From the NCBI RefSeq assembly GCF_009914755.1, contig NC_060927.1: a stretch of DNA of 64,000 bases; one strand, written 5' to 3'. The translations under genes and the position numbers were made by a program. Below the pieces are notes generated by a model. It did not search any database and was not told the DNA's origin. It was given only the letters and a program-made list of their open reading frames with translations. Positions 4,750 to 61,609 of this stretch are shown here, piece by piece; the stretch's first letter is position 1; each line of letters begins with the position of its first letter. The stretch is from the human T2T-CHM13v2.0 reference genome, Homo sapiens.

Positions 4750-4885
4750 CTGCAAATGCTGTGAGTTGTCAGCCATGCTGTCTTCTCGCCTGCGCACTTC
4801 TTCTAGTAACTGAGCATTTTTCTTCTTTTCCAACTGTTGATTGTGCTTGAGGTTGGCCACCTTCTTATTCTGATCTTTCATATGC
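4750..4885 (-). CDS. ERC2: ERC2 coding exon, 136 nt, phase 2/0 (HMKDQNKKVANLKHNQQLEKKKNAQLLEEVRRREDSMADNSQHLQ)
   Basis: Minus strand reads gacttttctcag|GCATATG...TTGCAG|gtaagc. It has 1 nt plus 45 codons, and the phase matches the upstream exons ending in AG. Confidence 0.97.
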
Positions 4886-39400: not shown

Positions 39401-40260
39401 ATCCTTTAGTAAACTCATTGATTGAATGATAAAGAAATCACTACATATTACTATGTTTTATTGGAAAGAGAAGTTGTCCTTGACTTAAGGAAGAAGAAAT
39501 TATGGGCTTGGGCCTCCTACATTGGAGGAATCAAGCCTGGGATGCATTTTCAGACAAAACGCCCATTTCATTTCTTAATATTGGGGTACACACAGTCAAC
39601 AATGAATCAGGTCTTACACTTGGTTCCATATGCTATGCCCTAGGTAATTAAAGTATGCCTTATGGATAATAAAATTGAAGTTAGAAAGTTAAAACCAAAA
39701 CAATGTCAGGAAATAACATGTGTGTACAATATGTTACTAACACATTGATAATTTTCAAAAGTGACTTTTTAAACAGTATTATACATCTTTCAGAACACAG
39801 TGATTTATTAAATGAAAAGTCTGAACAGTTTGCACTGTTAAATTTAGCTTTTAAGTTGCTGTGTCATGGGCAGATATTTTGTTCTCCTAGGTTAAATTCA
39901 GCATCCTGCATTATGTTTTTATCCATGGCTCCACGTTGTATCATCCTGCAGTCAATTTTCTGAACTGCTCAGGAGAAATGCACTGGGGAGTTATCATGAA
40001 AATTTCTCTCATGGATTTTATAATCCAGAAATAGAATTAAATAATCCAACACTGACTTATCTCCATCTTTTTCCTTGCCTTTTCCCACCTATACATCCTT
40101 TTCATAAAATAAACCTTCCCAAGGCATGGAATGAAATGAGCGGGGGGAAATGCAGTGGCCAGAGGAAAACCATTTCAGAAATGTGTTTGTTAAACAAGTG
40201 CAAGCCATAAATTGAGCTTAGGAGGGAAAGGCAGTTAGAAGAAAAACTGAAATTACTGAC

Positions 40261-40272
40261 CTGAGAGTCAAG
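40261..40272 (-). CDS. ERC2: ERC2 12-nt microexon, phase 2/2; changes ELE-R-HMK to ELE-SLTL-R-HMK
   Basis: Minus strand reads ccaatcag|CTTGACTCTCAG|gtcagt, preceded by ACTAAT and an AG-free pyrimidine zone of about 130 nt. Joined to the flanking exons it gives ESLTLRHMKDQ, the sequence I recall from the ERC2 reference protein. Confidence 0.93.
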
Positions 40273-40366
40273 CTGATTGGAGCAAGGGTGAAAGCAGCAA
40301 TTTGGAGGATAAGCAGAAAGGAAAAGGGATAGCAAAAGAGAATAAAAGGAAGGAAATGCATTAGTT
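40273..40366 (-). promoter_or_regulatory. Splicing control region of the 12-nt microexon: distal branch point (ACTAAT), long polypyrimidine tract and UGC cluster
   Basis: ACTAAT lies at 40360-40365. There are six TGC triplets in about 90 nt and no AG between 40275 and about 40408 on the minus strand. Confidence 0.7.
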
Positions 40367-43300
40367 TTAAACATATAGCCAACAGATGTTATATCAGCAG
40401 GTTTATAACTAAACAAAGCAAACTTTTATCTTATATTACCCCCAAAAGCCCTGGGCACACACTGTAAGCTGTTGTATTAAATATCATACCAAAGAAACTG
40501 GTAGCTGCTCTGATATGTATAATTACAAAAAGCACTGATGTGAACCAGAGGTGTGCTCCCACAGTACAATGACAGCATCAGCCCTTCTCTGGAGGAATAT
40601 TTATAGAGAAAGTTCCTATCTGTGTGCATATAAAATTTTATTATTTAATAAACTGAAATGGAAACTACTAAGGTATTAGACCTGGGTAAGTGCTCATGTC
40701 AGAAAGATTTTTATTTGAACCAGTAAGTTGGATGGTTATATCCTATGAGATATTTTTCCTTCATCCTTGAAAACCAAAAGGAGCTGAGCAATTTGGCTTT
40801 CGGTTCAAAGATTTCCATTTTAGATGCTTACAGAGCACTGCACATAGCAATGATCAAAGACCCCCTGAGGAGGGCTTTTGGTGGTGTGCCACCCACCTAT
40901 CAGCTTCCGCAGCAAGGACAGAGTAACTTTCCAAGCTGAGAGTGATTTTTTTCAGTCAGAAATACGAAGTTCCGACTTCATTACTGAAAATATCAAGTTA
41001 TAATACTTTTTAATTTGTTTGTATAAAAATATCTAGCATGTCCGTCTCATTGGTTAAAACAATAATCTCTATTGTCAAGCAAAAAAAATAAAAACAAACA
41101 AACAAACAAAAAACCATATTCATCTTCCAGGCTACTATAGGAGCACATAGTGGACATTCATTTTGTTGATCTGTAAAATGCCCTTTGCAAAAACAAAGTG
41201 GATAAACAAATACTTTTCCAGCTTTCTGCTCAATGGGGCCCCACCATTCCATACTATAAAAAAGTAGTTTTAGGTATTTCACATGGGAAGGAAAAACAAA
41301 ACAAAATAAAATAAATCCTCAGGATAAAGCTTAAGCTAGAACATTTCAAATGAAAACAGTGTTGACTACAATGATACAACTGAAAGAGAAAATTTAAGAT
41401 TAACCACACGGGGAAAGTGTTGATTTGATAATCCCTTGTATCTGAAATCCCCCTGCAGAGTGTTTTGTGATCATAAATGCGCAACTGATCTAAAATGAGA
41501 GTTATGTCAGGACACGATCACTGTGGGGACTTTGGCAACACTGGCCCAAGCTGCCATTTCAAATCCTTCTGGATCAAAGGTAATTAAATCAAGGTCTGTG
41601 GCCAAGCCTTAGGAAATCCTAAACTGAAATAGCAAGCACACATTTCAGATGTAGTTGCCTCTTTCAAGGGCTCCCAGTTTTCATCAAATTCTCAAAGGTG
41701 TCTGTGATGTCCGTGACCTTCCCCAAAAAGTTGCTAGGAATGGCATATAGCCATCTGCCACTTGTTTTCAAGAAATTCTTTCAAATACATTAACAAATGT
41801 AAGTGAAAATTACTCGGCAAGAAACATTTATATCAAAACAAATAAAACTGGCATCAAGTTTTTTCCATGTACCATGAAACTTCTAAAAGATATTATCATA
41901 ATTTAAAAATAATAATAATGCTCAAGTTTACATTTTGAATGGAGCTCTGAAAGGCATCAAGGAAATTATGTTAGTACATTATTGAGCAAATCAGAAGAAA
42001 AAATAACATTCTCTTCCTCAAACTTAGATAAGGCTCTTTTAGGCATCTAAAATGATTTCTCAGTGTCCAAATGTCTGGTGATATTATTTCTCCAACCAGA
42101 TAATTAAGTGGAAGGCTGTTTTCCATTCTGATGTTATGTCTTACGAGTGGAACCCCCAGGGATCCAGCCTCCTCTCCGCATTGGGGAGGTATGTGATTGA
42201 GGGCTCAATTTGGGCATTCTCCATCCTCTAGACAAATACCAACAAAATCCCTAACATATTTAAGATAATTACATGAAAGGTCACCCAAACTGATTCCTTC
42301 CCATGGGCGGGATGTGAGAAATATAGTGGCAGCAGGTCTTACTTGACAGATTCTATTAACCTCTCTCTTTCCCCTAAGTCACCAAAGGATTAATTCTGAA
42401 ACTCTAAATAAAACTCAGAGACCTTGATGGGCACTGACACAGAAGCACTGCATATTTCACTGCCTCTAAGGTTTAATTAGACACTAGGTTCTGTAATATA
42501 CGTGACATCTGACATTGGAGATGGAATAAAGACTTCAGCTGAATTTGGACCAACTCTCAGAGACTTGCTCAAGGCCCACCACCCACCTAGTAGCAAACTC
42601 CCCTGAGCTGCCTGCAGTCCAAGGCAGAAGCTCCCCACTGGGCCGTGCAAGAGTTTACAGGCATAACTGCACGTGGGACCACACTAGAGCAACATGCACT
42701 TTAAAAAGCAAAATCTTTAATGGCTGATGAGAAACACCACGCACATGGAATTTAAGAGGTAAATGCATTGTGTAAATGCCAGCCATGTGCTATCTGGAAT
42801 GGGAAGATTAACAGAATAGAAAGTAAACACATACTGCCTTCTGAGAGAGGAGGGGGCCAGTGTCAAGGTTGTCTGAGTTATTCCTAACCCTGTACCTTTT
42901 GTTGCATACAATTGAAGTTCTGGAATATTTTAGAACATTTCCTCCTTTTAAAAGAGGTCCTTTCACTCTGGTAGGTCACATTACAAGCCAGAGACCACAA
43001 ATCTATTTCAAGTTCAATTTTTGGTTTTCAAAATTACAAATTTAATTGCAAACATTTCTGCATGGCTCCAAAATGGAGATACATGTCACATTGCTAAGAA
43101 CTCTTTAGTTGTCAATATTGTGAGGTATGAATTTTGTAGTTTTATCCAGCAAATGACAATATTGCCCAATTTGAAAAAGGTTGCTTGACAACTGGAAGAA
43201 GATGTTTTGGTCAGAATACACATGTAGCACAGCAGATAATGCTTCAGAAAGGCAGGCCAAGGCTGAGCCCTTTTTTTCCCAAGAAACTTCCCCTCTGAAT

Positions 43301-43914
43301 CTCCACCCCCACCTCCTTAGGGGCCTGGGCTGGGGCTGAAGCTCAGACATTTCCCAGACAATGCTCTGCTGCTGGACGCAAGACACGGGCAGGCAGAGTA
43401 CTGGGACAGACTCAGGTCCCACCACACGTTTTATGAATTACAGTGCCTGGGAGGCATCAGCTTTAAGGGGAGGCAAAGGCAGAGATAAAGAAAATGTGCA
43501 GAAAGTACATAAAGATAAATGCCTGTAAAATCACTGCTGCTTTAATGCATTCCATATTGAAGAAATAAAAATCTGAATATTCTTGATGATTTAAAGGCAA
43601 TAGTGTCCAGCTAAGACCTGTTTGTCCAATTAGACCATTAAGCTGTTTATATGTAAATGTTTATAGTAGCTTGTCCTGATTTTCAATTACAGTTCTGGGG
43701 GGCTGGTTTAGCATAGAAAAAATGCCATCTAAGCGTGAAGCACATCACTTTCTCTCCTGTATGCTAATAAAGAGGTAGATCTCTTGCAGCCCAGCAGCAA
43801 TGCCTGCTCAGGAAGGCTATATGCTGGCTGCTTGACTGTTTAGTGCTGCTGTACTAGCTTCTTTCTTCTGGCCCATTAGCAGAAGGGATTGTTCTCAATG
43901 GCTCATCTGTCAGC

Positions 43915-44105
43915 CCTGAGTTTGAATCCTGATTAGATTCTTATGAGCTCTGCAACCTGGAGGAAGTTACTTAATCTGTATAAATCATAGTTTCTCATCT
44001 GTAAAATGAGAATAATGACAGTTTCTGTATTGTGGGTGAGACTAAAAGGTACACAGTATTGCACGTCAAGTGCTTCCCAGAGTACCTGGCACACAGTGAG
44101 CATAG
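43915..44105 (+). mobile_element. MIR SINE
   Basis: Contains agttacttaatctg...gtttctcatctgtaaaatgagaataat...agtacctggcacacagtgag. Confidence 0.75.
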
Positions 44106-44716
44106 AATATACATACAATATACATACCCTAGTATTACAAATAAAACTACTATAATTTTTAATATTATTATCTAGGGCATCCTCCACATAGCTCACCGCT
44201 TCTCAGAGCAGTGGACTAGGAATCAGGAAACCCATATTACAGTTTCACATCTTTCTGACTACAGGCCCAATCTCAGGAAGGTCATTTAACTTTTCAAGAT
44301 CTCAGTTTCCTAATCAATGAAAGAGACATGATCATAACTTTCCTGTGATCTCATGTCAGTTTTTCTAAGAAAAATTTTGGTTCTAAAATGTAGTTCCAAA
44401 ATAGATCCATCTAAAATCACAGTGCTCCCCACTTTTTAAGAACCAGCAGACTAGCAGAACATCCTCACATTTTAAAATTAAAACAAAGCCCTTTAAGGAT
44501 TCTATTTGGGATAGTTACCTCAAAAAAAAATGAAATCCTTGACTTTACTGCTAAAATTGGTCACAATGAATAAAAATCAGATTATCATCAAACTAATGCT
44601 ATTATGAAGAGAAATATTAATTGATTTGGAATTTGAATGTACCAAATATTATACCGGAAAATGTTGAAATTTTATTGGAAATTAACCTACTTGTTTAATA
44701 CAGAGACAAAGTTGAG

Positions 44717-44999
44717 ATTTTTTTTTCTTTTCTTAGAGAGAGGAATCTTGACCCCAGGCTGGAGTGCAGTGGCTCATAATTTACTGCAGCCTTGAACTCC
44801 TGGACTCAAGTGATCCTCCTGTCTCAGCCTTCTGAGTAGCTGGGACCACAGGCACACATTACCATACCCGGCTAATTATTGTAGATACAAGGTCTCCCTG
44901 TGTTGACCAGGCTGGCCTCAAACCCCTAGGCTCAAGCCATCCTCTCACCTTGGCCTCCCAAAGTGCTGGGATTATAGATACGAGCCACCATATCTGGCC
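44717..44999 (-). mobile_element. AluJ-like element, reverse orientation
   Basis: T-rich start, then ccaggctggagtgcagtgg...ctcaagtgatcctcctgtctcagcc...cctcccaaagtgctgggatta...ctggcc. Confidence 0.92.
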
Positions 45000-45149
45000 T
45001 TGATAATTTATTTGTTTTAGCATTTGTTCATAATGATATACATGTTCCACTTTACCTGGGGACCAATTGCTTGCAAAGCATCATTTGAATAGGTTGTTAG
45101 AGATTCACTCACTTCTAACAAGATTCAAGGCCATGAAAGGCTAAGGACA

Positions 45150-45356
45150 GATGATTGCTTGAGTCCAGGAATTGGAGACCAGCCTGGGTAACACAGTGAG
45201 ACCTGATCTCTACGAAAGATTTTTAGAAATTAGCCAGGTGTAGTGGCGTGCACCTGTAGTCCCAGCTACTCAGGGGGCTGAGGCAGAAGGATCACTTGAG
45301 CCTAGAACTTCGAGGCTGCAGTGAGTTGTGACCATGCCACTGCACTCCAGCCTGCA
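45150..45356 (+). mobile_element. Partial AluJ-like element
   Basis: Contains gattgcttgagtccagg...ttagccaggtgtagtggcgtgcacctgtagtcccagctact...cactgcactccagcctg. Confidence 0.9.
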
Positions 45357-46340
45357 CAGCTGGCAAAAAGCAGAGGCAAAATTTGAACTCAGGTCTTTCT
45401 GTCACTGAAGCCCATGATCTTTCCACAAGATGATAGAGAGCTACTCTGTGTATGTCTTGAAGTCCTTTAGGGCCTCACAAGTGTCTCGATCAAAGCTGGC
45501 TAACATTCACAGGTTTATTCAAAATTTGGTGATCTCTTCCATATGGATTGAATCTGGGAAAGACAAATTCTGCCTTACTGCTGAACCAATAAGAAATCTG
45601 CAGAGGTTATGGAGTTATGTAGGATTTTTCAGAAAGTTTTTTCCTTACATGAAGTACAGGAAAAGACATTGATAGCAAGCTTATTTTTAGCATCCACACT
45701 ATACATAAATACAATACGGATATGATTTATCTGAAAATCTAAATACTCTGATGCAACACTCCCTGTTTTTACACAGAATTTGCTATCATGCAGGACCTAT
45801 TCAAGTATATGTATTTAAAAGGTCCTCTTAAGAGATAAACCTCCAGGATGAATTTGTCATGATGTGCCAAGAGACATCCAAAGGATATGAGCTCCTTCCT
45901 TCTTCCGCTATCTTGAATGAAGAATTCCCAACTATATTCTTCGGTTTTTGGTGTTGGTGGTGGTGTTGTTGTTGTTTGATCAAGACAAAACTAAACCACA
46001 AATATTTACCTGTGATGGAAAAGAACTGAGGTTTTGGGTAGTCAAAGCCCCAATTTCTTACACACTTCGCTGGAAAAACGCTAGATCATGGACATCACTC
46101 AAGAAAGTTGACCACTATTTTCTTCAACACTGAAGAAGTATATAATCCCTCAGAAGATAAGCCAATTGCATTCTTAGTATTCCACAGAAACGTCATCTTT
46201 CACAGGCCATATTCCTCATTTATGACTTGTTTCTAACTTGTAATATGAATGTACAGTCCAAATCCACCACAACCGGAGATGGGCAACCACGCAGTCCATG
46301 TTCTCTCACTGCCAACAATTTATATAACTGTAAAATTTAC

Positions 46341-46534
46341 CTCTCCAGTTCTGCGATCTTCTTGTCCTTGTCATTCTTCTCATTCTCCACCTCCTTGAGG
46401 ATCTCCAGCAACCGGTCCACTTCCGCTTGGGCCTTGCCACACTCGTCGCGGTAGTAAGACGCCTCTTTATCGAGCTGTTTTATTTGGTCTGCAAACTCAG
46501 GGTTCATCCTGGAGTCATCTTCAATATTATGTGC
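46341..46534 (-). CDS. ERC2: ERC2 coding exon, 194 nt, phase 0/2 (AHNIEDDSRMNPEF...KDKKIAELE)
   Basis: Minus strand reads ttgaag|GCACAT...GAACTGGAGAG|gtaaat. It has 64 codons plus 2 nt, is CpG-rich like an exon, and the peptide is recognised as ERC2. Confidence 0.97.
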
Positions 46535-47425
46535 CTTCAACATTACATTTTTAAAGAATGTAGTTAAGACAACAATTTAGAACAATAGACAGTGCTGTCA
46601 CCAATGGTCCAGAAATTAACTTTGGAGAGAAAATCACCACCAAGATTTATGGGTATATTGTCAGTGAAAAGGCAAAATAGAAAAATCACACATTTCAGCT
46701 ACCTTAGAAGAATGCTGATTTTAAAATAATATTAGAGTTTCACAGGGGAGTTTCTTCAATTATTGATATTTTGTTCCATTAAATGTTGCTACTTTTAGCT
46801 TTTCTTTCCACCAAAAAGTAGGGTTAGATACTGTGATGTCTTTATTCCCGGTCATTTGATAAGCAGACCTAAGACAATTCAACTCCTCACAGTTAAGGAG
46901 GTGATTCATACAAAATGCTTCCATTTCCAATACAAAGACACCAAAACAACACAATATTGGATTATTTTCCAAGAACTATCAAGGGCACATGTAAAGCCAG
47001 ATAACATATAAGAGACTGATTAACTAATAATTGAACATGTCATTCCACTGAGAAATTTCAGCAGGAAATATAGTTTGAAAGGAGGCTTGGAGGTGAGGAA
47101 GGGCTTTCCAGCTAACAGTTATACCCATAAATTCTCATTCTCTTAAATAAATTTAACCTAAACCAGGAGGAGGATGAGCTAATTCATGAACAAGTACACA
47201 GACAAGAATCTGCAAACACATGCATGGGTGGGTGGCAGCTTCACACACAAGAAAAGACACAGGCAACAACACAGCAACAACATTGCAGAATAATTTGCAG
47301 CCAAAGTATTTGTGGGTTTGTGTGTGAGAGAGTGCGTTACAGCTTTTTTTTTTCCCAAAATAAACTTTTGGCTGAAATATTCCCAGACAGATAGAAATAA
47401 CACTGCACTGCAATGTTTTGCCTAC

Positions 47426-47455
47426 CCCTTGTTTCCCATTATTCCTAATTGACTT
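47426..47455 (-). CDS. ERC2: Candidate alternative ERC2 microexon, 30 nt (27 nt with the second tandem acceptor), phase 0/0 (KSIRNNGKQG)
   Basis: Minus strand reads ttgttttttccctgcctgctctttgaag|AAG|TCAATTAGGAATAATGGGAAACAAGGG|gtaggc. It is open and frame-preserving, with an AG-free zone of about 88 nt upstream and TGCATG about 200 nt downstream. Confidence 0.65.
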
Positions 47456-48931
47456 CTTCAAAGAGCAGGCAGGGAAAAAACAAGTAGTTTATACAACAGT
47501 GCACATTCAACATAGAAAGTTCAGATAAGTCATATACGTATGTATCTCCAAAATCCATGGATGACATAATCAAATGTTAACAATTTTTAAGGACTTAAGT
47601 TTTTCTGCTGTCTTGCTACATGGAGCAGATATTTATTGTGTTTTTATATACTTTTTTGAAAATTTCAGGGAAAAAACAAGGCAAGCAAGCTACAGCTACT
47701 GTGGGATTGAATGAATCATGCATGGTTAGAAAAATTAATACTAATACTACGGTTAGAAGGTTTGACAGTCTTTGCAATGATTCAATAGAAAAAAAATTCA
47801 AAAATTAGTATAAATAAAATAAATTTCATATGACAAAATAATCATTTTAGAAATAATATTTTTGCATGTAACATATTATTTAAGCATGAGGATAAAGGGG
47901 AAAAAGTTGCTTTCATGTTCTTAAACCTAAGATTTCCTTATTTAAGAAATAAACTCAATTACACAAAAAAAAAACAAGAAAAATATGTCAATTCAACACA
48001 CTATCAGGTACTGGTTTATTCCCTTTTACCAACATTTTTCAGAAAACATTTATTTTCATTTATTTACTATGCACTCTGTGTTTCATTATAATAGATTATT
48101 AAACTTTTTCAGTACAATTAAAATAATCTGAAAGAGAATCCTGAGCTAACATACCTTTAGGAGTATATTTATCTAATAATTTCATTTTAAGCTTAAGTAA
48201 TGAATAAATTTCCTAATCTCCACTTTAAAAATGTAGAGCAGAAATTCTATTTTAAAAGAAAGTAACTACTCCATATACCTGCTTCTATTTGTGACAATAT
48301 GAATCATTACTTTTGTTACAGAAAAGCATTTAAAATACACAGCTTTTAAATTGCTAAGGAAAAACTTCGTGTTAACCTCTCTTTCATTTTTATACTGTAT
48401 TACCATTCTTTTACAGCAGTTAAAAACCTTTTCATGACATTTCTTGAACTATCCAAACAAGGCTATTAAGATTTTTAAAAAAGAATTAATGAACTGAGTA
48501 ATGAGCAGCTGGAAGCCCTCAAAACAAATGAATACGTATATTTTGATTGCCTGTTTCTTAGGACAGTTAAAACTCCTTTCCTGATGCTGATTTTTAAAAG
48601 TTCACAAATAGCTAGCAGTTAGTTGCTGTGGCTTATTTTGGTTGTTTTTCTTATTATTATAGTCCGTTTTTAATAAGTGGGTACAGGATTACTAGTTGCA
48701 AGACCAAGATTCTAAATCCAGTCCTGCATCTTATATTTACAAAAGATTAGGCAAATTAATTAGCCTAAAAACCATGAAAACTACAAAATGACAAACACGG
48801 GGGGAGATATTACTCACTTTTGTTTTTATTATAATTATTATTTCATAATATGCATCCCAGAAATACAGCTTGTTACTCAGCTAAGTTAATAGATTTATTT
48901 GATTTTCATTGACAAGATACTACATACTCCC

Positions 48932-48932
<1 letters not shown>

Positions 48933-48960
<28 letters not shown>
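48933..48960. repeat. Poly(A) tract of 28 nt
   Basis: Directly visible. Confidence 0.95.
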
Positions 48961-48962
<2 letters not shown>

Positions 48963-49340
48963 CTCCCTGATAGGTTTACAGAGACAGCGTAGTCTGCTAG
49001 AGATAGGTATGTACACATATTCCTTATTTTAGCTCCATGAAGAAAAGATGATCATTCAACGCCACTTTTCAACAGTGGGTGAAATCAGATGAATTCATAG
49101 TCTTTTCAGACAAGTAAGTAAGTATGGTGAAAGGACTCATGGGATGTTTAGAAGCACAGAAAGCCTAGGAAAAAAAGTGCCTGAATCTAGACTGTACCAC
49201 TGTTGACATCATTTGATGCTGAAGTTAGGTCATGTCATTAGAATGAAGACCAGAGCCAAGTTTACGACTGGCCTGGTATCTATTATTAACAGATCACACT
49301 TCAAGTGCTAATGAGATTTTTAAAATAAATAGACAACCTC

Positions 49341-49617
49341 GGCCGGGTGCGGTGGCTCACGCCTGTAAACCCAGCACTTTGGGAGGCCAAGGTGGGTGGA
49401 TCACAAGGTCAAGAGATCGAGACCATCCTGGCCAATATGGTAACACCCCATCTCTACTAAAAATACAAAAATTAACTGGGCATTGAGGCACACGCCTGTA
49501 GTCCCAGCTATTCAGGAGGCTGAGGCAAGATAATTGCTTGAACCCAGGAGGCGGAGGTTTCAGTGAGCCAAGATCATGCCACTATACTCCAGCCTGGCGA
49601 CAGAGCGATACTCCATC

Positions 49618-49650
<33 letters not shown>
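49341..49650 (+). mobile_element. AluSc-like element with (AATC)n tail and 18-bp TSD
   Basis: Diagnostics ggtcaagagatcgagaccatcctggccaa and cctggcgacagagc. TSD is aaataaatagacaacctc (49323-49340) and aaatgaatagacaacctc (49648-49665). Confidence 0.93.
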
Positions 49651-52168
49651 TGAATAGACAACCTCAAGAATACCTGTGAGTTAAATCTCTCTATCTCTAT
49701 ATCAATATCTACTGATTTTCAGGCAAAAGAACTTATGTCAAGCCACTTTCAATCTTGGTGCCAGAATTGTTGGGAGAGCTATTAAAATGTCATTTAAATG
49801 TTTTTAAATCAACAGAAAGCTTTAAGAAAAAGTCATATAAAGATGACAGGGAAACCGCTGCTTCTTGGATCATTACTAGGGTCCATGTAAAGACTCAATG
49901 AAAGAGAGTTTCACATGACTGGGAAGGCTGGTGAGTCCCCAGCTAAGCTTAGGTATTGGAGGCTAAAGCCTCTAAAGAATTTACAAAAGATATTGTACAT
50001 AACCAGCTCTATTCAGCCTGAGTCACAACTTTTCAGAGGATGGGCTGAAATTTTTAACTAGTAACCAGCATGAATGTGTTCTACCATGATCTACAGACAT
50101 GAGTGATTCTACACTAAATAAAATAGTGGAGGAAATTGAGCTTATTAAAGCCAATGCTTCCTTCAAAATTATGAGTCCTGAGCTTCCTCCAAAAATGGAA
50201 TGAAATAAGCACTTTATTTGTATTTAGGCAATATTCTCGCCTTTTCAAATAACAACATGAGTTCTTTAATCTGACTAGCAGCTCCCGATAGAGATCAAAA
50301 GTAGGTAACAGACTTGGATCTATCATACTTTAGACACTACAGCGAAAAAAGCAGATTTGAATAAATCATGATCACAGTAAATTCCTGCCATGGCATTCTA
50401 ATGCATTCAAGACATAAATTGAAAATGCACAGTAATATTTTTCCTTAAGAATATGTTGGTTTGCAATTAGCTCCCCAACAAGGTCTGGGAAGGCTTGCCC
50501 TTTCTATACTTCTAAGGAACATCAACTTTGTCCTCCTATTTTCATTAGTCAGGAATTTACCTCTTAAAAACACAAATTGGTGTGAGTTTTCTTTTGATGG
50601 TTTCAGATCTTATTTACCATGAATATAGCAAGCTCATCGTCACTTTCAAGGACATCCACCATCATTAAAACTAAAGGAATATCAATAAGCATTCTTTCAT
50701 TAATATAGAGATTTAATTCCACTGATTAAACAGGTCAGTTTAAAGGCAAATCCAGGTATCCGATTCTGCTCAAAAATATTTCTTAAAACATTTAGAGCAA
50801 CTCTCAAGCATCTTATAGAAACACAAAAAAATGGGAAAAGGACATTTCAGAAATGTCTGCATCGCATACTACATCAGTAAGTTTTGAGGGACTCCCAATT
50901 ATATTTCTTGTATTTCCATATGTAAGGAAATGTCCCCGCAAATGGGAATAACCAAAACAAACTCTGGAGTCTCACTGATGTGGGCAGGCCTCTGGGTTTT
51001 GATGTGAACTGACTTTGAAAGCCTAGATCAGGCATTAAGAGGACTCTGACCATGGCTTGGGATGAGCAGTATATTAACTTATAGTTATAATAACCTAGTA
51101 GTTATTTTAGTGAAAGAATTTATAACTACTTCAGGAAATAAGGCAAAACTTCAGATTAATACTATATGTAAATGAAAGTTAAGAAGCCAAAAATGGCTAA
51201 AGCCAAACTATGGGGTTGTCAAGTATCAAAATCATACGTCTATTTACATTTAATCTTCTAAAGACTGGTCATTGATTATTTCCAATAAAATGGCAGTTCA
51301 TCAATCCAGATCCCTAGAAAGGAAAGTATTAACTTTGGTCCAGAAACCTGCTGTGAAACAAGGCAGGGAACATTCAATTATTACATTATATAACACGTTC
51401 CCTTTGAAATAAACCCTACCAATTTTAATTAAAAATCATTTCCCTCAAAATAAACAAATAATTCATCATGACCATAAAATAAAAGCAGAATGTTAACGAA
51501 TGTATTTGATGACTTTTCTTCCCTGCTGTTTCTGGGTTTTAGCAATAATTTGCTAAATTTAGGCAGTGTAGAAATATGATTCTCGATTGTGGCATGTTGG
51601 TGGTTTAATGTCCATTGACAGCGCTTTAATATTCCTTTCATATCTTAACAGCAGAACAGGGTATAGAAACTATTTTGAAAATTATATTTGACTACAGTCT
51701 TCTAAAAGAATTTCAATCTTCTCATAATTCTAAGTTATAAATAAAATATTACATTTTAAAAGAAAATTTTTAAGGTGATTATTGAGTTATAATATTTATA
51801 TTATATATTATATATGTTATATATAACATATTATAACTCTATAATAGACTGATATAACTCTATTATAGACTGATGAAACATACATATTATTGTTTAGAAT
51901 GAAGAACCAAGGGAAGAAAAAGAACCCAACTGAAGATAACCTGCATAGTGTTTCTAATAATAAGACAAAACTCCAGGAGTAGAATGATAGTTAAGCTGCA
52001 GAAAGGTTACAAAAAAAAATTACAATATCAAGGCAAAACTTTAGGTTCCTAATTTAGAAAATTAAATTTCATTTAAAATATATCAATACCAGGCATCATT
52101 GCTGAGCCTAAATAATACATTTGGAAACTAATAATGATGTATTTTGAAATGTTATACATCTTAATTCT

Positions 52169-52174
52169 GTTTGT

Positions 52175-52206
<32 letters not shown>

Positions 52207-52350
52207 TTTTTTTGTTTTTTTTTTTTTTTTTGGTAGAGATGGGGTTTGCTATGTTGCCCAGCCTGGTCTCCAACTCCTGAGCTCAAGTGATCCTCCAGCC
52301 CTGACCTCCCAAAGTGCTGGGATTACAGGCACAAGCCGCCACACCCAGCC
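52169..52350 (-). mobile_element. FLAM-C-like Alu monomer with long A-rich tail and 16-bp TSD
   Basis: Single reverse monomer with flanks tatacatcttaattct (52153-52168) and tatatatcttagttct (52353-52368). Confidence 0.85.
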
Positions 52351-53799
52351 CCTATATATCTTAGTTCTAAAGGAAATTATTCACTCACAATTCAAGCTAA
52401 CTGCATTCAGAATATTCAAAAATTTGTGTATTAAAACAACCACACCAAAAAAATTATTTTCATAGATGGAACAAATAGGATATGTATAAATAAATATAAA
52501 TAAATATTCTTATGTCTCTCTCTCTTTCTCTCTCTCTCACACACACACACATACACACAAAAGAACAACTGTATGCTTAATACTTCTAAAGATCCCCCAA
52601 ACAAAACTGTAATTATTAATGCAATCCTTTTTAATTATGGGATTTCCTAAAATTAGCAATGTAGAGAACTGAGGTAATTATCTGGATGTCCTCAAACAAA
52701 ACATGTAGCTTCAAATGTTGAGTGTTATTGCAAATATTAGTTGAGTTTTTTAGACACTGAAAGCCTGGATCAATTATAGGGTATGTGTTTGTGTGTATGC
52801 ATGTGTTTACACATGCTATGTGCATGCCTGGAATTATCTCTTAAATAGTTGTAACTTTCCACTGTGCTGGGAGATAACTGGTTTAAGAGTGAGTCGAATA
52901 CTTTTCAGAAATAGGCTTCAAAAATCATAAAAAGAAACTGCTATATCCAAACAATGACTGTGAAAGCATTTATAATTCAGCCCATTACGTTCCTGGGACT
53001 ATACTGTCCTGTAATGACCTACAAAGCAGGACATTAACAAGATTTTTTTTCTATCTCTCTGGAATGAAACATGCCTGCTTTTTGGCTTTTGTTATGTTTT
53101 TTGTAAACACTTACGTAAAATGTGAGCCCTGCTAAATATGTGTTGAGAAGAGATAGGATTTCAAATGGATACCTACTAGGCACTGGGTACCCCAAGTGTG
53201 GGGAACATCAGAGGGGTCTCAAATGTGCCCTGGCCAACAGCAAGGTTGCACCCAGTGCCTCCAAATCAGTCATTTGCCTTTTAGCAACAAGGGTATTATA
53301 TGAAACACTAAATTGAGGGACCCAGAAAGGTCTAAAGATTTATTAAAATTTTTTGAAAGACTCCCGATACCATCTCTGCATACAATGACCACAAGGGCTA
53401 CAGCAAACAAGGTATTTGAGACTGATGAAACACGCATATTATTTGTTTAGAATTAAGAACCAAGGGAAGAAAAAGAACCCAACTGAAGATAACCTGCACA
53501 GTGTTATAATAATAAGACAAAACTCCAGGAGTAGAATGATAGTTAAGCTGCAGAAAGGTTATAAGAAAAATAATGATATCAAGGCAAAATTTTAGGTTCC
53601 TAAGAAATGTCATTAGATATTACTTTGTGCAATAGAGTGACTAAAGTAAAAGGAGATAAAAAGTAAAAGGTTCCTTTCGACCCTAGAAATAAAAATACTT
53701 GCAGAAGCACTTAAAAGCTTAATCCTTGTTTACTCTGACATAGTGTAGACTGTCAGACAGAATTGACTATAAAATTATCTTATTTAACAAAAAACAACT

Positions 53800-55020
53800 A
53801 TACTATAATTCACCAAAAATTTGTTATGTGGCCATATAGAAAATAAACATACAAAAATAAAAGAAATTTCCTAGCTATGATAACTGATTAGAAAATAAAA
53901 TAATAAGTATATCATTTACAATAGCAACCTAAAAATTAAATATATATAGATATGCTTAAGACTATCTTTAAGAAGAAATATCATGGGAAAATATTAAACT
54001 TCACTGTAAAAAGCCACTGGAATAAATACAAGTTGGATCAGGTTTATGAATGGAAAGAAATAATATTGGGAACATATAAATAGTTCTAAAATTATTTTAT
54101 AGATTAAATATATTTAAAATTAAAATCAACAATTTTGTGTTTTAATTGACAAAGTGATCCTAAAATTTACTTGGAATGATAGAAAATTAAAGGCTAAAGA
54201 CTTAAGACAAAATGAAAAGCAGAAATAATTAAGGTGTAATTTGTTTTACTAGATATTTAAAAATATAATAAAGATACAATAATTAAAATTTTGACCCAAC
54301 AAATTAGAGACATCAATAAAACTGAACAGATGCTTAGAAACTAAGACACTCACCCAAATGAGAACTTCATATTCAATAAAATAGTATCAAGATCAGTGGA
54401 TAAAGAGAGAATTGTTTGATAAATCATGCTGGATAATTAGTTGATAATTTAGAAAAATATAATTAGAACCTCACCTCTCAACATGAATAAAAATGAACTA
54501 AAGATGGATAAAGGGCTTAACTTGATACCAAAAGCAAAATTAAAACATTTTAAATACAGGTAAGTGAAATCAGAGAATAGTTTCCAGAATAAAGGTAGTG
54601 AGGAAAGCCTAAAGAAAAGTACAGGTCAAGAACCTAAAAATTGTTCTCTATATACATAAAAAAATTTAGGCTAAATAAAACTGCCATAAATCTGGCAAAA
54701 ATTCTATATAAAACACAGAATAACTCATATAAACCAATGAACAAAACAGTAAACTCAAAAGCAAGTGCTTAACTGATTTAAACTACTTACGTAAGAAAAA
54801 ATACAAAAAGCTAATAAATGTACTGGAAAACCTCAACTTCAGTAGTTATTAAAGAAAGAAAAGTTAAAAAGGCAAAAAAAAATTCCACCTAAACATGTGT
54901 CAAAGTTATGTAAAATGACAATTCTCAATGTTGGCCAGGGTGCGGCAGAAAGGCCATTTTTAATCAGTGCTGGAAGAAGCATGCTTTGGTGGAATTCCTA
55001 GGAAACTTAAGATAGTAGGA
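53800..55020 (+). mobile_element. Highly diverged ancient L1M ORF2-region fragment
   Basis: A-rich sequence with L1-like motifs (catttacaatagcaac, ttgacaaagtgatcctaaaattta, tttgataaatcatgctgg). Boundaries approximate. Confidence 0.55.
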
Positions 55021-55058
55021 ACTATTGGGATCTTTACAAATCACTGGCACAGGAAGGA

Positions 55059-55196
55059 GGCAAGCACGGTGGCACATGTTTGTAGTCTCAGCAACTCCAG
55101 AGGCTGAGGCAGGAGGATCCCTTGAGCCCAGGAGTTTGAGACCAGTCTTAGGCAACAGAGCGAGACTTCGTCTTAAGTTTAAAAAAAAAAAAAAAG
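55059..55196 (+). mobile_element. Free Alu monomer (FLAM-A-like)
   Basis: Contains gaggctgaggcaggaggatcccttgagcccaggagtttgagaccag, followed by poly(A). Confidence 0.85.
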
Positions 55197-57386
55197 TGAT
55201 GGGGGAAGAAATTACCAACATTAGAGGAATAAGCAAATAGAGTAGAATAGTATACAATCATTAAAATAGTATTTTGGAGGAATAGTTCATTATATGAGAA
55301 AATTCTAATAATGTAAAAAAAATAGAATAGAAACCCAAATAAACACTTTGAAGTAGAGTGTTAGATAAGAAAAAGAAAAAGTAACACAAGAGTGAGAGAA
55401 GGAAAGGAGGAATAAAGGGAAGGAGAAGGCAAGAGGAGAGAGGAAAGAAAGAAGAAAAGAAAAAGAGAGAAGAAGAACAGCAACAACAAAAAGATGTCTA
55501 GGTGGAGAACAATCCAAATGTTCCAGCAATTATTTCTGTGCCGTGAGATGTCCTGTTATTTTTTAATTTTCCTCTATAGGCTTCCATATGGTTGCAAATT
55601 CTCTACTGTGACCATATATTATTTTTACAACTAAGAAAAACATAGTCATTTTTAAAAGACAATTAAGGGTAGAAAATCCATCATGCTGCATCCCTATCAG
55701 TCCAAAAAACAATTGGACACCAAGACAGGGGGAGTTAAAATAATGAGAGTTTGGCTATATTCCCGGGATGCCAAACCAATGGGTTAGTTTAATTAACTTG
55801 AGGAGAAAAGTCAGTCAATGACTTTTGAATTAGTCACTGAAAAGACTGAAAAGTTCACGCTGGCATATTAGAGACGCACCACTGGGGTGAAGTGAAGTAA
55901 AAGTTGATGATGCCATGTCACTGATATTTCTAGAAATGGTCTAAAAGCTAACTGAGAGTTATTTCTTTGGTCCTACCTATCCTGACAGGGAGAGTGAACT
56001 CCTAGCATGGTCCTGGTATATTTTTGCTGCTGCAGGAACAAGGCTCTCCCCATCTGTCATGCACACACCCAAAACATGACATTCTTTGGTTTTCTTCCTG
56101 TTCCTAACTAGTAAGTATGAAACAATTGCAGTGGGATTATTTCGCTTATTTTTTAAACAACTTTTTTTAAACACTCATTTTTTCCCAGGGTGTTTTCGAG
56201 CTTGAAGATATTCCAGTCTTATTTGTCTTTCTTCACATCTCCACTGTCCTGAGCCTGCTTATTAGCACTTCTATTCAAATGTTAAGGGAAAAGAAACTTA
56301 AGCTGATTATTTTTTGCTTCTCTGCTAAAATCTGCATTTTGAAAAAGAGGTTAACAAAGATGCTCCAGCAGGGTTTTAGGAATTCTGTTTGCAAAAATAA
56401 AATGTGTTGTAAAGAATGGAGGGTGGAGGCTGAATCTAACTAAGTACACCTGAACATCTTGCAGATCAAGCTGTATGTATCCTGAAGCAGTGGCTTAACA
56501 AATAAAAAGTTGTGGGTGCAATTGTTTCCTTTATCCATGCTATTCATTTTCTCCATAAGGGGATTTATACATAGGAGGTGATTAGAATGCATGATAGCAC
56601 AGATCACATCTGCCAAATGATAAACTCTAGCCATCTTTATGAAGTATTTTCCCAGTAAGCCACTTAAGTTCACTGAACAAAAAAGCTTTTCTTCTTTAAT
56701 AAGTTTAAAAAACAAACTGCTTCATATATTAATAAATGCACACAAGTCACTAGGATAAAAAAAATTCGTGGTGGCACCTGGCTCATTTTACAAATATTTT
56801 TACTAGTTACCTTTTTGTACTCTATTAAGCTATAATCAGAATTGTTACTATCTGTTATTAGGAGACTATATTATGGTTTGTCCTCAGCCAAATGGCATGC
56901 CTTTAACTGTTACAAAATCCACAGTAATGTCAAGTATTTACCAATCTCAAAGAGCGTAACCCTGTTTTTAAATCTAAACCTGTTTTAACTTCTGTCACTT
57001 GAATAAAACAGATATTGAATTGTTTGCTATTTTACAAATGTTGTTATCCCTTTCGGCCTAGATATGCTTGTGTTTGAAGGATTTAAGGAAGAGTTCCATA
57101 AGCCTAGATCTTCAGCTGACTTTTGTTTTTCTATAGTCTTTGGGCTGAGGTTAAGAAGGAGGTAATATCAGAGTTGGCAATATTTTCTTGAGTTATTAAT
57201 TTTTAAATTTCACATTCAAAAGAAATGGCAGTGGCCTCAGCACAGATCATTTCTTTTGACAGAACGGAAAGGGGAAGAAACTCATAAATATTTTCAAAAC
57301 CTCCCCAGTATGGCACACCGTGACTGGTGATCAATGGATCCTCATGCTTTGATATGTTACAGCGGGAACTTTCAGAAATGACTTAC

Positions 57387-57422
57387 TGGGTTGTACATCT
57401 GATTGAACAACTGCTCAGCTTG
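57387..57422 (-). CDS. ERC2: Candidate alternative ERC2 cassette exon, 36 nt, phase 0/0 (QAEQLFNQMYNP)
   Basis: Minus strand reads gctaat, then an AG-free pyrimidine tract of about 70 nt with UGC triplets, then caatgtag|CAAGCTGAGCAGTTGTTCAATCAGATGTACAACCCA|gtaagt. It is open and in phase with the flanking exons. No transcript evidence is available to me. Confidence 0.75.
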
Positions 57423-57496
57423 CTACATTGCAAAGTTGGGGAGGCATTGAGGCACAGACAGGGAAAGAAGGAAAGATCCAGAAAAACAGCATTAGC
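57423..57496 (-). promoter_or_regulatory. Splicing control region of the 36-nt exon: branch point GCTAAT, polypyrimidine tract and UGC motifs
   Basis: CTAAT lies at 57491-57495, with TGC at 57430, 57444, 57452 and 57489. The stretch is AG-free up to the acceptor. Confidence 0.6.
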
Positions 57497-61468: not shown

Positions 61469-61609
61469 CTTTTTTAACTGTGCTTCCAATTTGCTACATT
61501 CCTCTTTCTTTTGTTCAATGGCTATTTCTAGAGATTTTAATTTGGAATCCCTTTTCAGCCCCGCAGAGGCTAATGAAGATGCATGTTCTTTGAGGTCAAT
61601 TAAACTAGA
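61469..61609 (-). CDS. ERC2: ERC2 coding exon, 141 nt, phase 0/0 (SSLIDLKEHASSLASAGLKRDSKLKSLEIAIEQKKEECSKLEAQLKK)
   Basis: Minus strand reads ttctttctctttcag|TCTAGT...AAAAAG|gtaagt. It has 47 open codons and the peptide is recognised as ERC2/CAST coiled-coil sequence. Confidence 0.97.

What the first reader, a model, noticed from the sequence alone, without database searches (positions are those of the whole stretch)
40261..57422. Cluster of three frame-preserving short exons with neural-microexon signals around one ERC2 exon: a possible combinatorial splice module
Seen in sequence: within 17 kb of the minus strand lie 36-nt, 30/27-nt and 12-nt segments. Each has AG/GT ends, a length divisible by 3, no stop codon in the phase set by its neighbouring exons, a 70-130 nt AG-free pyrimidine zone and TGC triplets within about 20 nt of the acceptor. 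Established: UGC motifs next to the 3' splice site are the SRRM4/nSR100 (SRRM3) signature of neural microexons, and downstream (U)GCAUG is an RBFOX enhancer. Inference: independent inclusion would give up to 2x3x2=12 local ERC2 variants within about 70 residues of an active-zone scaffold. I recognise only the 12-nt exon from the canonical protein.
Basis: partly seen in the sequence, partly recalled or inferred. Interest (0 to 1): 0.85.

Follow-up and report, generated by a model that had tools for sequence, protein, structure and literature searches.

The report
Three conserved short ERC2 exons
Three tiny in-frame exons of the human synapse-scaffold gene ERC2 are real and conserved across vertebrates; two are already annotated in human and the third is annotated in many other animals, so the finding is sound but mostly ordinary.

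Summary
On the minus strand lie a 36-nt exon (57387-57422), a 30-nt segment (47426-47455; a 27-nt form would use a second AG) and the 12-nt exon (40261-40272). All have AG/GT ends, open frames, AG-free zones of 71, 88 and 134 nt, and TGC within 10-16 nt of the acceptor.

These signals alone are not above chance: the same criteria give 10 hits on the minus strand and 11 on the non-coding plus strand. Protein models from other species settle it. The human 30-nt segment encodes KSIRNNGKQG, and that peptide sits at exactly this position in 120 of 354 ERC2 models examined, from apes to echidna, birds and lizards. It is in none of the 16 human-named models.

The 36-nt and 12-nt exons also occur in teleosts. 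ERC1 carries a paralogous 12-nt microexon.

The "12 variants" idea is not supported. The 30-nt peptide never occurs without the 36-nt one (0 of 120) and no 27-nt form is seen, so six states are modelled.

The inserts lie five residues from the published CCC/CCD boundary. They lengthen a predicted hinge and add a heptad stutter. SRRM3/4 control is inferred, not shown.

The parts
61469..61609 (-). Constitutive 141-nt ERC2 exon, ending ...EAQLKK in phase 0; the exon upstream of the module
   Evidence: Hub table. Frame and splice sites read. AG-free zone only 30 nt.
57387..57422 (-). 36-nt cassette exon encoding QAEQLFNQMYNP
   Evidence: hub table (exon of other RefSeq transcripts). The peptide or a close homologue is in 284 of 354 ERC2 models, including teleosts and gar (QAEQLFSQMNNP). 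Donor matches the U1 consensus at 7 of 9 positions.
57425..57495 (-). 71-nt AG-free, pyrimidine-rich zone upstream of the 36-nt exon, with TGC at -10, -24 and -32
   Evidence: pyrimidine fraction 0.70 over 40 nt.
57343..57347 (-). GCATG 40 nt downstream of the 36-nt exon; a candidate RBFOX site, but not the full TGCATG
47426..47455 (-). 30-nt cassette exon encoding KSIRNNGKQG. It is not in the human RefSeq table. A second AG three bases in would give a 27-nt form (47426-47452).
   Evidence: The identical peptide sits between the 36-nt peptide and AHNIEDD in models from apes, monkeys, ungulates and some rodents. Horse models match 98% over the 46-residue region. Variants are KPIRNNGKQG (echidna), KPIRNEGKQG (Mastomys) and MPIRNNGKQG (birds, lizards). 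The weak donor GGG|gtaggc matches U1 at 5 of 9 positions. The surrounding 301 nt are single copy in the human genome. The 27-nt form is seen in 0 of 354 models.
47458..47545 (-). 88-nt AG-free zone upstream of the 30-nt exon, with TGC at -12, -16 and -48
47219..47224 (-). TGCATG 202 nt downstream of the 30-nt exon; a distant candidate RBFOX site
46341..46534 (-). Constitutive 194-nt exon (AHNIEDD...IAELE, ending in phase 2) that the three short exons flank
   Evidence: hub table. Held 2016 (PMC4935463, Fig. 1 legend) places the ELKS2 CCC/CCD boundary between ...NIE and DDS..., inside the first codons of this exon.
40261..40272 (-). 12-nt microexon of the canonical transcript; inserts S-L-T-L
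   Evidence: hub table. Models both include and skip it in mammals, birds and teleosts (SLTL/F/V, SLTS, SLAP). Human ERC1 has a paralogous 12-nt exon.
40275..40408 (-). 134-nt AG-free zone, very pyrimidine-rich (0.82 over 80 nt), upstream of the 12-nt exon, with TGC at -12, -24, -27 and -43
4750..4885 (-). Constitutive 136-nt exon downstream of the module (..HMKDQNKK..)
   Evidence: Hub table.

Best explanation
The interval holds three genuine, frame-preserving, evolutionarily conserved cassette exons of ERC2 (CAST/ELKS2) around the constitutive 194-nt exon.

Shown:
- The 36-nt exon adds 12 residues and the 30-nt exon 10 residues. Both insert between ...EAQLKK and AHNIEDD..., five residues before the published boundary of coiled-coil regions CCC and CCD.
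- The 12-nt microexon inserts SLTL 64 residues further on, inside the CCD helix.
- The 36-nt and 12-nt exons are conserved from teleosts to human. The 12-nt exon also has a paralogue in ERC1.
- The 30-nt exon is seen across amniotes. In every model that carries it, the 36-nt exon is present too.

Inferred mechanism, protein:
- The two upstream exons form a graded switch of 0, +12 or +22 residues.
- They extend the upstream helix by about nine residues and lengthen the non-helical hinge between CCC (Liprin-alpha and Bassoon binding) and CCD (CaV-beta, Rab6 and RIM side). In AlphaFold2 models the hinge grows from about 15 to about 24 residues.
- The microexon adds a four-residue stutter that shifts the heptad register of the CCD helix.

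Inferred mechanism, RNA:
- Distant branch points with long AG-free pyrimidine tracts and UGC motifs just upstream of the AG make these exons weak by default. They would depend on a neural or endocrine activator of the SRRM3/4 type.
- The weak donor of the 30-nt exon would make it the least readily included. That could explain its absence from the human gene table.
For: Sequence and frame.

Conservation:
- in the 120 best of 4347 ERC2-like proteins, 6 carry 36+30, 48 carry 36 only and 65 carry neither; one could not be scored (tallied).
- all 120 listed rows carry QAEQLFNQMYNP followed by K/M-S/P-IRNN/E-GKQG. They span primates, artiodactyls, horse, rodents, echidna, birds and squamates.
- Substitutions follow phylogeny while position, length and frame are kept.
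- Both NCBI 'isoform X' models and UniProt/UniRef-sourced entries (for example chicken E1C853 and pig A0A4X1VN78) contain the 30-nt peptide.
- Teleosts and gar have QAEQLFSQMNNP and SLAP.
- ERC1 has a paralogous 12-nt exon giving S-L-T-S with the same gtcagt donor, at G000:C12:1198801-1198812.

Position in the protein: Held 2016 (PMC4935463, Fig. 1 legend) gives ELKS2 CCC ...NIE and CCD DDS....

Structure:
- AlphaFold2 of P0123 (all three inserts): helix 580-696; non-helical with pLDDT below 50 at 696-720; helix 721-814, with SLTL (774-777) inside it.
- AlphaFold2 of P0009 (no inserts): helix 671-693; non-helical 694-708; helix 709-797.

Heptads: the best a/d phase upstream of SLTL is 5. Downstream it is 5 without the insert and 2 with it.

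Cis signals: compared with the architecture in PMC3464207 (passages) and 10.1101/2024.09.17.613571 (passages).

Literature on Erc2 splicing, none naming the exon in the main text:
- Mis-spliced in the Srrm4-mutant inner ear (PMC3464207, passage).
- An ERC2 microexon in human brain linear and circular RNA (PMC8355340, passage).
- An ERC2 event PCR-validated in autism cortex (10.1101/077057, passage).
Against: - No human model among the 16 Homo sapiens-named entries, and no Homo sapiens row among the 120, carries the 30-nt exon. No Mus or Rattus rows appear either, so inclusion in the best-studied mammals may be low or absent.
- Protein models are predictions. NCBI's pipeline can carry exons across species by protein alignment, so the 120 models are not 120 independent observations.
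- The cis signals are no more frequent on the coding strand than on the opposite strand (10 versus 11 hits), so they are weak evidence for a regulator.
- The 36-nt and 30-nt exons exceed the strict 3-27 nt microexon definition.
- The ERC1 paralogue of the 12-nt exon has no TGC in its last 45 intron bases.
- The AlphaFold2 models are monomers of a coiled-coil protein with pTM 0.24-0.28. Only local secondary structure is usable.
- The fish list was ranked against a query lacking the 30-nt insert, so absence of that exon in fish is weakly shown.
- No expression, junction-read or knock-down data could be examined.
Confidence: 0.72

Rival explanations
1. In human the module has only two working exons (36 nt and 12 nt). 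The 30-nt segment is a conserved relic that is used in birds, reptiles and some mammals but is effectively silent in human.
For: 0 of 16 Homo sapiens-named ERC2 entries carry it and there is no human row among the 120. The hub table lists no such exon in 20 RefSeq transcripts. The donor GGG|gtaggc matches U1 at only 5 of 9 positions.
Against: The human sequence keeps the AG, the GT, the frame and a peptide identical to that in bonobo, orangutan, macaque, marmoset, sheep and pig models. Its upstream zone looks like those of the two accepted exons. A silent relic would be expected to decay.
Confidence: 0.2
2. The exons are real, but their tissue control is mainly by PTBP1/2 de-repression, RBFOX or other factors rather than SRRM3/4. 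The TGC triplets are incidental.
For: The signal set is as common on the non-coding strand (11 versus 10 hits). The tract before the 12-nt exon is 82% pyrimidine over 80 nt, and PMC3464207 (passage) notes that PTBP1 sites flank Srrm4-regulated exons. A GCATG lies +40 after the 36-nt exon. The ERC1 paralogue of the 12-nt exon lacks TGC. Preprint 10.1101/2024.09.17.613571 reports that UGC is not strictly required and is absent from 21-26% of dependent microexons.
Against: Erc2 is named among Srrm4-dependent splicing defects (PMC3464207). All three exons carry two to four TGCs within 48 nt of the AG, against 0-1 within the 60 nt scanned for the three constitutive exons. The two explanations are not exclusive.
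Confidence: 0.3
3. One reading: the three sites are spliced independently, with 30-nt and 27-nt acceptor choices, giving up to 12 local variants.
For: The AAG|AAG tandem acceptor is present. Both states of the 12-nt exon are modelled with each of the three upstream states.
Against: There are 0 of 120 models with the 30-nt peptide but without the 36-nt peptide, and 0 of 354 models with the 27-nt form. Birds and lizards have ATG, not AAG, as the first codon, so the tandem acceptor is not conserved. The listings favoured models with both inserts, so rare forms could have been missed.
Confidence: 0.08
4. The 30-nt exon is an annotation artefact spread between species by homology-based gene prediction.
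For: Most carriers are automatic predictions. The best-curated species (human, mouse, rat) lack it in the lists seen.
Against: Lineage-specific substitutions (K/M, S/P, N/E) occur with frame, length and position preserved from mammals to birds and squamates. The exon is present in entries from more than one source. The splice sites are intact in human.
Confidence: 0.05

Closest known systems
SRRM3/4 (nSR100)-dependent neuronal microexons
   Same: Short and frame-preserving, deeply conserved, in a presynaptic scaffold gene. They have a long AG-free zone with a distant pyrimidine tract and UGC just upstream of the AG (compared with PMC3464207 and 10.1101/2024.09.17.613571). Erc2 is named among Srrm4-dependent transcripts.
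   Different: Only the 12-nt exon fits the strict 3-27 nt definition. The 30-nt exon has a weak donor, whereas the preprint stresses strong donors. Dependence on SRRM3/4 and neural specificity were not tested here, and the affected Erc2 exon is not named in the texts I could read.
ERC1 (ELKS1) paralogue, human chr12
   Same: Same exon structure for the 141-, 194- and 136-nt exons. It has a paralogous 12-nt microexon (S-L-T-S, donor gtcagt) in the corresponding intron.
   Different: No recognisable counterpart of the 36-nt or 30-nt exons in the 6.4-kb ERC1 intron. The ERC1-like cluster representatives seen lack all inserts. No TGC within 45 nt of the ERC1 microexon acceptor.
ERC2 isoform models of other vertebrates (NCBI 'isoform X' and UniProt/UniRef entries)
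   Same: They contain exactly the peptides encoded by the three human segments, at the same positions.
   Different: The human gene table and the human entries in the searched database lack the 30-nt exon. In birds, forms with both upstream inserts include entries named only 'ERC protein 2', whereas the selected human RefSeq transcript (NM_015576.3, hub table) lacks both.
Coiled-coil stutters (four-residue heptad insertions); recalled general knowledge, no call
   Same: SLTL is a four-residue insertion in a predicted long helix and moves the best a/d phase from 5 to 2.
   Different: Here the stutter would be switched on and off by splicing. No dimer structure or biophysics is available, and no PDB entry covers this region.
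NAGNAG tandem acceptors; recalled general knowledge, no call
   Same: An AAG|AAG motif lies at the 30-nt exon acceptor.
   Different: No model uses the distal AG (0 of 354). The motif is absent in birds and lizards.

Membership tests
SRRM3/4-dependent neuronal microexon | Length 3-27 nt (strict), or up to 51 nt (broad usage, as in PMC12064062 abstract, listing) | tested here: inconclusive
   12 nt meets the strict limit. 30 nt and 36 nt meet only the broad limit.
SRRM3/4-dependent neuronal microexon | UGC motif between the pyrimidine tract or branch point and the 3' splice-site AG | tested here: met
   TGC at -10, -12/-16 and -12 for the three exons, inside AG-free zones of 71, 88 and 134 nt. 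The same motif set is equally frequent on the opposite strand, so this is weak evidence.
SRRM3/4-dependent neuronal microexon | Frame preservation and deep vertebrate conservation | tested here: met
   All are open in phase. The 36-nt and 12-nt peptides occur in teleosts, and the 30-nt peptide in mammals, birds and squamates.
SRRM3/4-dependent neuronal microexon | Inclusion lost on SRRM3/4 loss and gained on expression; neural or endocrine-restricted inclusion | not testable with these tools
   Only an indirect statement: Erc2 is listed among mis-spliced transcripts in Srrm4-mutant inner ear (PMC3464207 discussion).
RBFOX-enhanced exon | (U)GCAUG in the downstream intron near the exon | tested here: inconclusive
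   GCATG at +40 after the 36-nt exon; TGCATG at +202 after the 30-nt exon; none within 300 nt of the 12-nt exon. Binding and dependence were not tested.
NAGNAG alternative acceptor (30/27 nt) | Tandem AG-NAG motif at the acceptor | tested here: met
   gaag|aag|TCA at 47453-47459.
NAGNAG alternative acceptor (30/27 nt) | Both acceptors used | tested here: not met
   0 of 354 ERC2 models carry the 27-nt form. Transcript data were not available.
Annotated ERC2 cassette exon | Present in a curated or predicted transcript | tested here: met
   The 12-nt and 36-nt exons are in human RefSeq (hub table). The 30-nt exon is in 120 non-human models and none of the human-named ones.

The most novel reading that the evidence does not exclude
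The three exons form a hierarchical six-state geometry switch at the CCC/CCD junction of ERC2.
- Hinge length would take three ordered values (0, +12, +22 residues), because the weak-donor 30-nt exon is spliced in only when the 36-nt exon is.
- A splice-controlled heptad stutter (SLTL) would cross with these three values.
- The human 30-nt exon, missing from RefSeq, would be used in cell types with the highest SRRM3/4 activity, such as ribbon-synapse sensory cells. There it would change the spacing between the Bassoon/Liprin-binding half and the CaV-beta/Rab6/RIM-binding half of the scaffold.
Probability: 0.2. Interest if true: 0.5.

Novelty: new member of a known kind. Interest (0 to 1): 0.3.

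Why it matters
ERC2/CAST is a core active-zone scaffold. A 2018 review says its many internal alternative exons are of unknown functional relevance (PMC5830537, passage).

This work places three of them precisely at the junction of the two functional halves of the protein. It also shows that one conserved exon is missing from the human RefSeq table.

It gives a concrete structural hypothesis: hinge length plus a heptad stutter. That hypothesis can be tested with existing knock-out and rescue systems.

The practical gains are modest: an annotation fix, and more careful interpretation of variants and splice events in this stretch of ERC2.

Tried and rejected
Tools that were closed or held nothing:
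The exon tables of the Srrm4, autism and circRNA papers may name the ERC2 exons, but I could not see them.
- PMC137906 (Wang 2002, ERC splice variants) is not held.

Literature searches:
- 'ERC2'+'microexon' found 1 paper.
- 'ERC2'+'micro-exon' found 0.
- 'Erc2'+'nSR100' found 2.
- 'Erc2'+'microexons', matched anywhere, found 2.
- 'Erc2'+'alternative splicing'+'exon' found 52, of which 40 were listed.
- Two broader multi-term searches were also run.
- In the Erc2 passages I read, no main text names these exons. 10.1101/2023.10.27.564439 proved irrelevant.

Other candidate exons:
- Three have stops in phase, and the peptides of three more are in 0 of 502 stored proteins.
- The 9-nt one could not be tested by substring, but no model has a matching extra insert between AELE and HMKDQ.

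Other checks:
- ERC1 counterparts of the 36- and 30-nt exons: none found in the 6.4-kb intron.
- Rfam: no family anywhere in the window.
- PDB: only three ELKS fragments, none covering the insert region.
- The cluster-representative search carries no names and mostly returned insert-free representatives. Its main use was to supply the carp ERC2 used.
- Transposon origin of the 30-nt exon: rejected, because the 301 nt around it are single copy and it lies outside the masked stretches in the hub table.

Full report
**What is in the sequence**

The window is human chr3, with ERC2 on the minus strand (hub table). Joining the four canonical exons in the window gives one open frame. It runs ...EAQLKK | AHNIEDD...IAELE | S-L-T-L | RHMKDQ....

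- The 141-nt exon ends in phase 0 and the 194-nt exon ends in phase 2.
- The 36-nt exon (57387-57422) has acceptor caatgtag| and donor |gtaagt. It reads QAEQLFNQMYNP.
- The 12-nt exon (40261-40272) is CTTGACTCTCAG with donor gtcagt.
I scanned 40273-57386 for AG-27/30-GT segments open in the local phase and found 49. Only one has an AG-free zone of 70 nt or more: 47426-47455, with 88 nt, TGC at -16 and -12, and 70% pyrimidine over 40 nt.
- Its acceptor is ctctttgaag|aag|TCA, which is the source of the possible 27-nt form. Its donor is GGG|gtaggc and its peptide is KSIRNNGKQG.

**Are the signals more than chance?**

The three short exons differ from the three constitutive exons of the window.

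| Exon | AG-free zone (nt) | TGC positions (last 60 nt scanned) |
|---|---|---|
| 36-nt | 71 | -10, -24, -32 |
| 30-nt | 88 | -12, -16, -48 |
| 12-nt | 134 | -12, -24, -27, -43 |
| 141-nt constitutive | 30 | -50 |
| 194-nt constitutive | 58 | none |
| 136-nt constitutive | 17 | -16 |

That set is AG..GT, length 9-51 divisible by 3, an AG-free zone of 70 nt or more, and TGC within 20 nt. It gives 10 hits on the minus strand and 11 on the non-coding plus strand. Five of the minus-strand hits fall in the 17-kb interval.

An open frame over 10-12 codons is also unremarkable. So the signals are consistent with, but do not establish, real exons.

**What establishes them**

A search with the 194-nt exon peptide among longer proteins returned 4347 ERC-like proteins, of which the best 120 were listed. 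Tallied:

- 65 have nothing between LKK and AHNIEDD.
- 48 have QAEQLFNQMYNP.
- 6 have QAEQLFNQMYNP followed by KSIRNNGKQG.
- One could not be scored.

A second search used the 46 residues around that double insert. All 120 of its listed rows contain both inserts:

- The listed region is 100% identical to the query in bonobo, orangutan, macaques, baboon, mangabey, marmoset, capuchins, sheep, ibex, cattle hybrid, pig, deer, kangaroo rat, ground squirrel and naked mole-rat. Horse rows match at 98%.
- Echidna has KPIRNNGKQG.
- Mastomys has KPIRNEGKQG.
- Pigeons, chicken, duck, ostrich, crows, other birds and two lizards have MPIRNNGKQG.

The human 30-nt segment therefore encodes, letter for letter, a peptide that other species' annotations place at exactly this junction. 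Frame, length and position are kept across amniotes while individual residues drift. That is what a constrained exon looks like.

None of the 16 entries named Homo sapiens carries it. No row is human, mouse or rat.

**Deeper conservation**

- A cluster-representative search yielded a carp ERC2.
- Searching with its junction region listed 120 proteins, mostly teleosts plus gar.
- 116 of them carry a 36-nt-exon homologue (QAEQLFSQMNNP and variants). Many carry SLAP where mammals have SLTL, and others skip it.
- None carries a 30-nt-exon homologue. That list was ranked against a query without it, so absence in fish is only weakly shown.

**The ERC1 paralogue**

The human genome is held as G000. 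ERC1 on contig 12 has paralogues of the 141-, 194- and 136-nt exons.

- Its 6.4-kb intron upstream of the 194-nt paralogue has no recognisable 36- or 30-nt counterpart.
- Its downstream intron holds a 12-nt exon, TCTCACCTCAAG, at C12:1198801-1198812. It reads S-L-T-S with the same gtcagt donor. It is the only one of 152 AG-12-GT segments in that intron matching the pattern.
- The same pattern applied to the ERC2 intron returns the true exon and one other segment out of 160.
- The 12-nt microexon therefore predates the ERC1/ERC2 split.

The 301 nt around the 30-nt exon are single copy in the genome, so it is not a repeat-derived exon.

**Combinatorics**

Across 354 distinct models:

| Upstream state | Models |
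|---|---|
| 36 + 30 | 120 |
| 36 only | 164 |
| Neither | 70 |
| 30 without 36 | 0 |
| 27-nt form | 0 |

Each upstream state occurs with and without the 12-nt peptide, so six states are modelled. Two cautions apply. The second list was selected for both inserts, and gene models are not transcripts. Even so, the data give no support for twelve variants and hint that the 30-nt exon depends on the 36-nt exon.

Birds and lizards start the 30-nt exon with ATG, so the tandem AAG|AAG acceptor is not conserved.

**Where this lies in the protein, and the likely effect**

Held 2016 (PMC4935463, Fig. 1 legend) defines ELKS2 CCC as ending ...NIE and CCD as starting DDS.... The 36/30-nt insertion point is therefore five residues before that boundary.

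The same paper and the 2018 review (PMC5830537, passages) assign binding partners:

- Liprin-alpha binds CCA-CCC.
- Bassoon binds CCB/CCC in the review, and CCC in Held 2016.
- CaV-beta and Rab6 bind CCD.
- RIM binds the C-terminal tail.

No PDB entry covers residues 640-800.

AlphaFold2 results:

| Model | Upstream helix | Non-helical segment | Downstream helix |
|---|---|---|---|
| P0123, 979 aa, all three inserts | 580-696 | 697-720 (pLDDT below 50 at 696-720) | 721-814, with SLTL at 774-777 inside it |
| P0009, 961 aa, human, no inserts | 671-693 | 694-708 | 709-797 |

On these monomer models (pTM 0.24-0.28, so only local structure is usable), the two upstream exons add about nine helical residues. 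They lengthen the hinge from about 15 to about 24 residues.

A simple a/d hydrophobic count gives heptad phase 5 upstream of SLTL. Downstream it gives phase 5 without the insert and phase 2 with it. That is a four-residue stutter. These are inferences.

**Regulation**

- Its discussion names Erc2 among mis-spliced ribbon-synapse transcripts.
- Preprint 10.1101/2024.09.17.613571 (passages) describes distant pyrimidine tracts and branch points, a UCUCUC...UGC enhancer bound by SRRM3/4, SRSF11, U2AF2 and PTBP1, and the importance of donor strength.
- All three ERC2 exons fit this layout. The weak donor of the 30-nt exon would predict inclusion only at high activator levels.
- The RBFOX cue is close only for the 36-nt exon.
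- Other passages report ERC2 splicing changes in autism cortex (10.1101/077057), developing interneurons (10.1101/305904), clock-mutant beta cells (PMC7397853), and an ERC2 microexon in brain circular and linear RNA (PMC8355340).

**Verdict**

- Two of the three exons are already annotated in human.
- The third is annotated in many other amniotes but not in the human table given, nor in the human entries of the database searched.
- The "combinatorial 12" claim is not supported.
- Regulation by SRRM3/4 is plausible but untested here.
- This is a new human member of a well-known kind of exon. It comes with a testable structural hypothesis and is of modest interest.

Noticed in passing
G000:C12:1198801-1198812 (locus L008): Human ERC1 has a paralogous 12-nt microexon (TCTCACCTCAAG, S-L-T-S) with the same gtcagt donor as the ERC2 microexon. 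There is no TGC in the 45 nt before its acceptor.
   Followed up: partly
P0001, P0002 (Papio anubis ERC2 models): These models repeat the peptide block of the 194-nt exon through the 136-nt exon twice in tandem (AHNIEDD at residues 718 and 828/832). This looks like an assembly or model duplication.
   Followed up: no
window 40273-40332 and 40219-40260 (minus strand), seen through P0171 and P0031: A macaque model extends the 12-nt exon 60 nt upstream into the pyrimidine tract (SYPFSFLLILQIAAFTLAPI...). The human sequence has TG, not AG, at that point. Another macaque model reads through the 12-nt exon donor to a stop (RSVISVFLLTAFPS*).
   Followed up: partly
acceptor of the 194-nt exon, window 46534-46540; P0486, P0495, and P0416/P0424/P0459/P0460: Teleost models have either ...NNP-K-AHEV or ...NNP-AHEV. 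Gar has NP-SQK-AHEA, and a vole model has NP-K-AHNIEDD. This is a 1-3 residue variation at this acceptor in other species. The human sequence (ttgaag|GCA) has no upstream AG that would allow it.
   Followed up: partly
P0009 residues about 220-227 (outside the window): Some human ERC2 models carry an extra 8 residues in the N-terminal coiled coil. This is another short alternative exon of the gene, lying outside this window.
   Followed up: no
window 54470-54520, minus strand: A 51-nt AG..GT segment is open in phase 0, with an 86-nt AG-free zone and a TGC.
   Followed up: yes
window 4822-4885: The hub table lists a shorter form of the 136-nt exon in other transcripts. I did not examine it.
   Followed up: no
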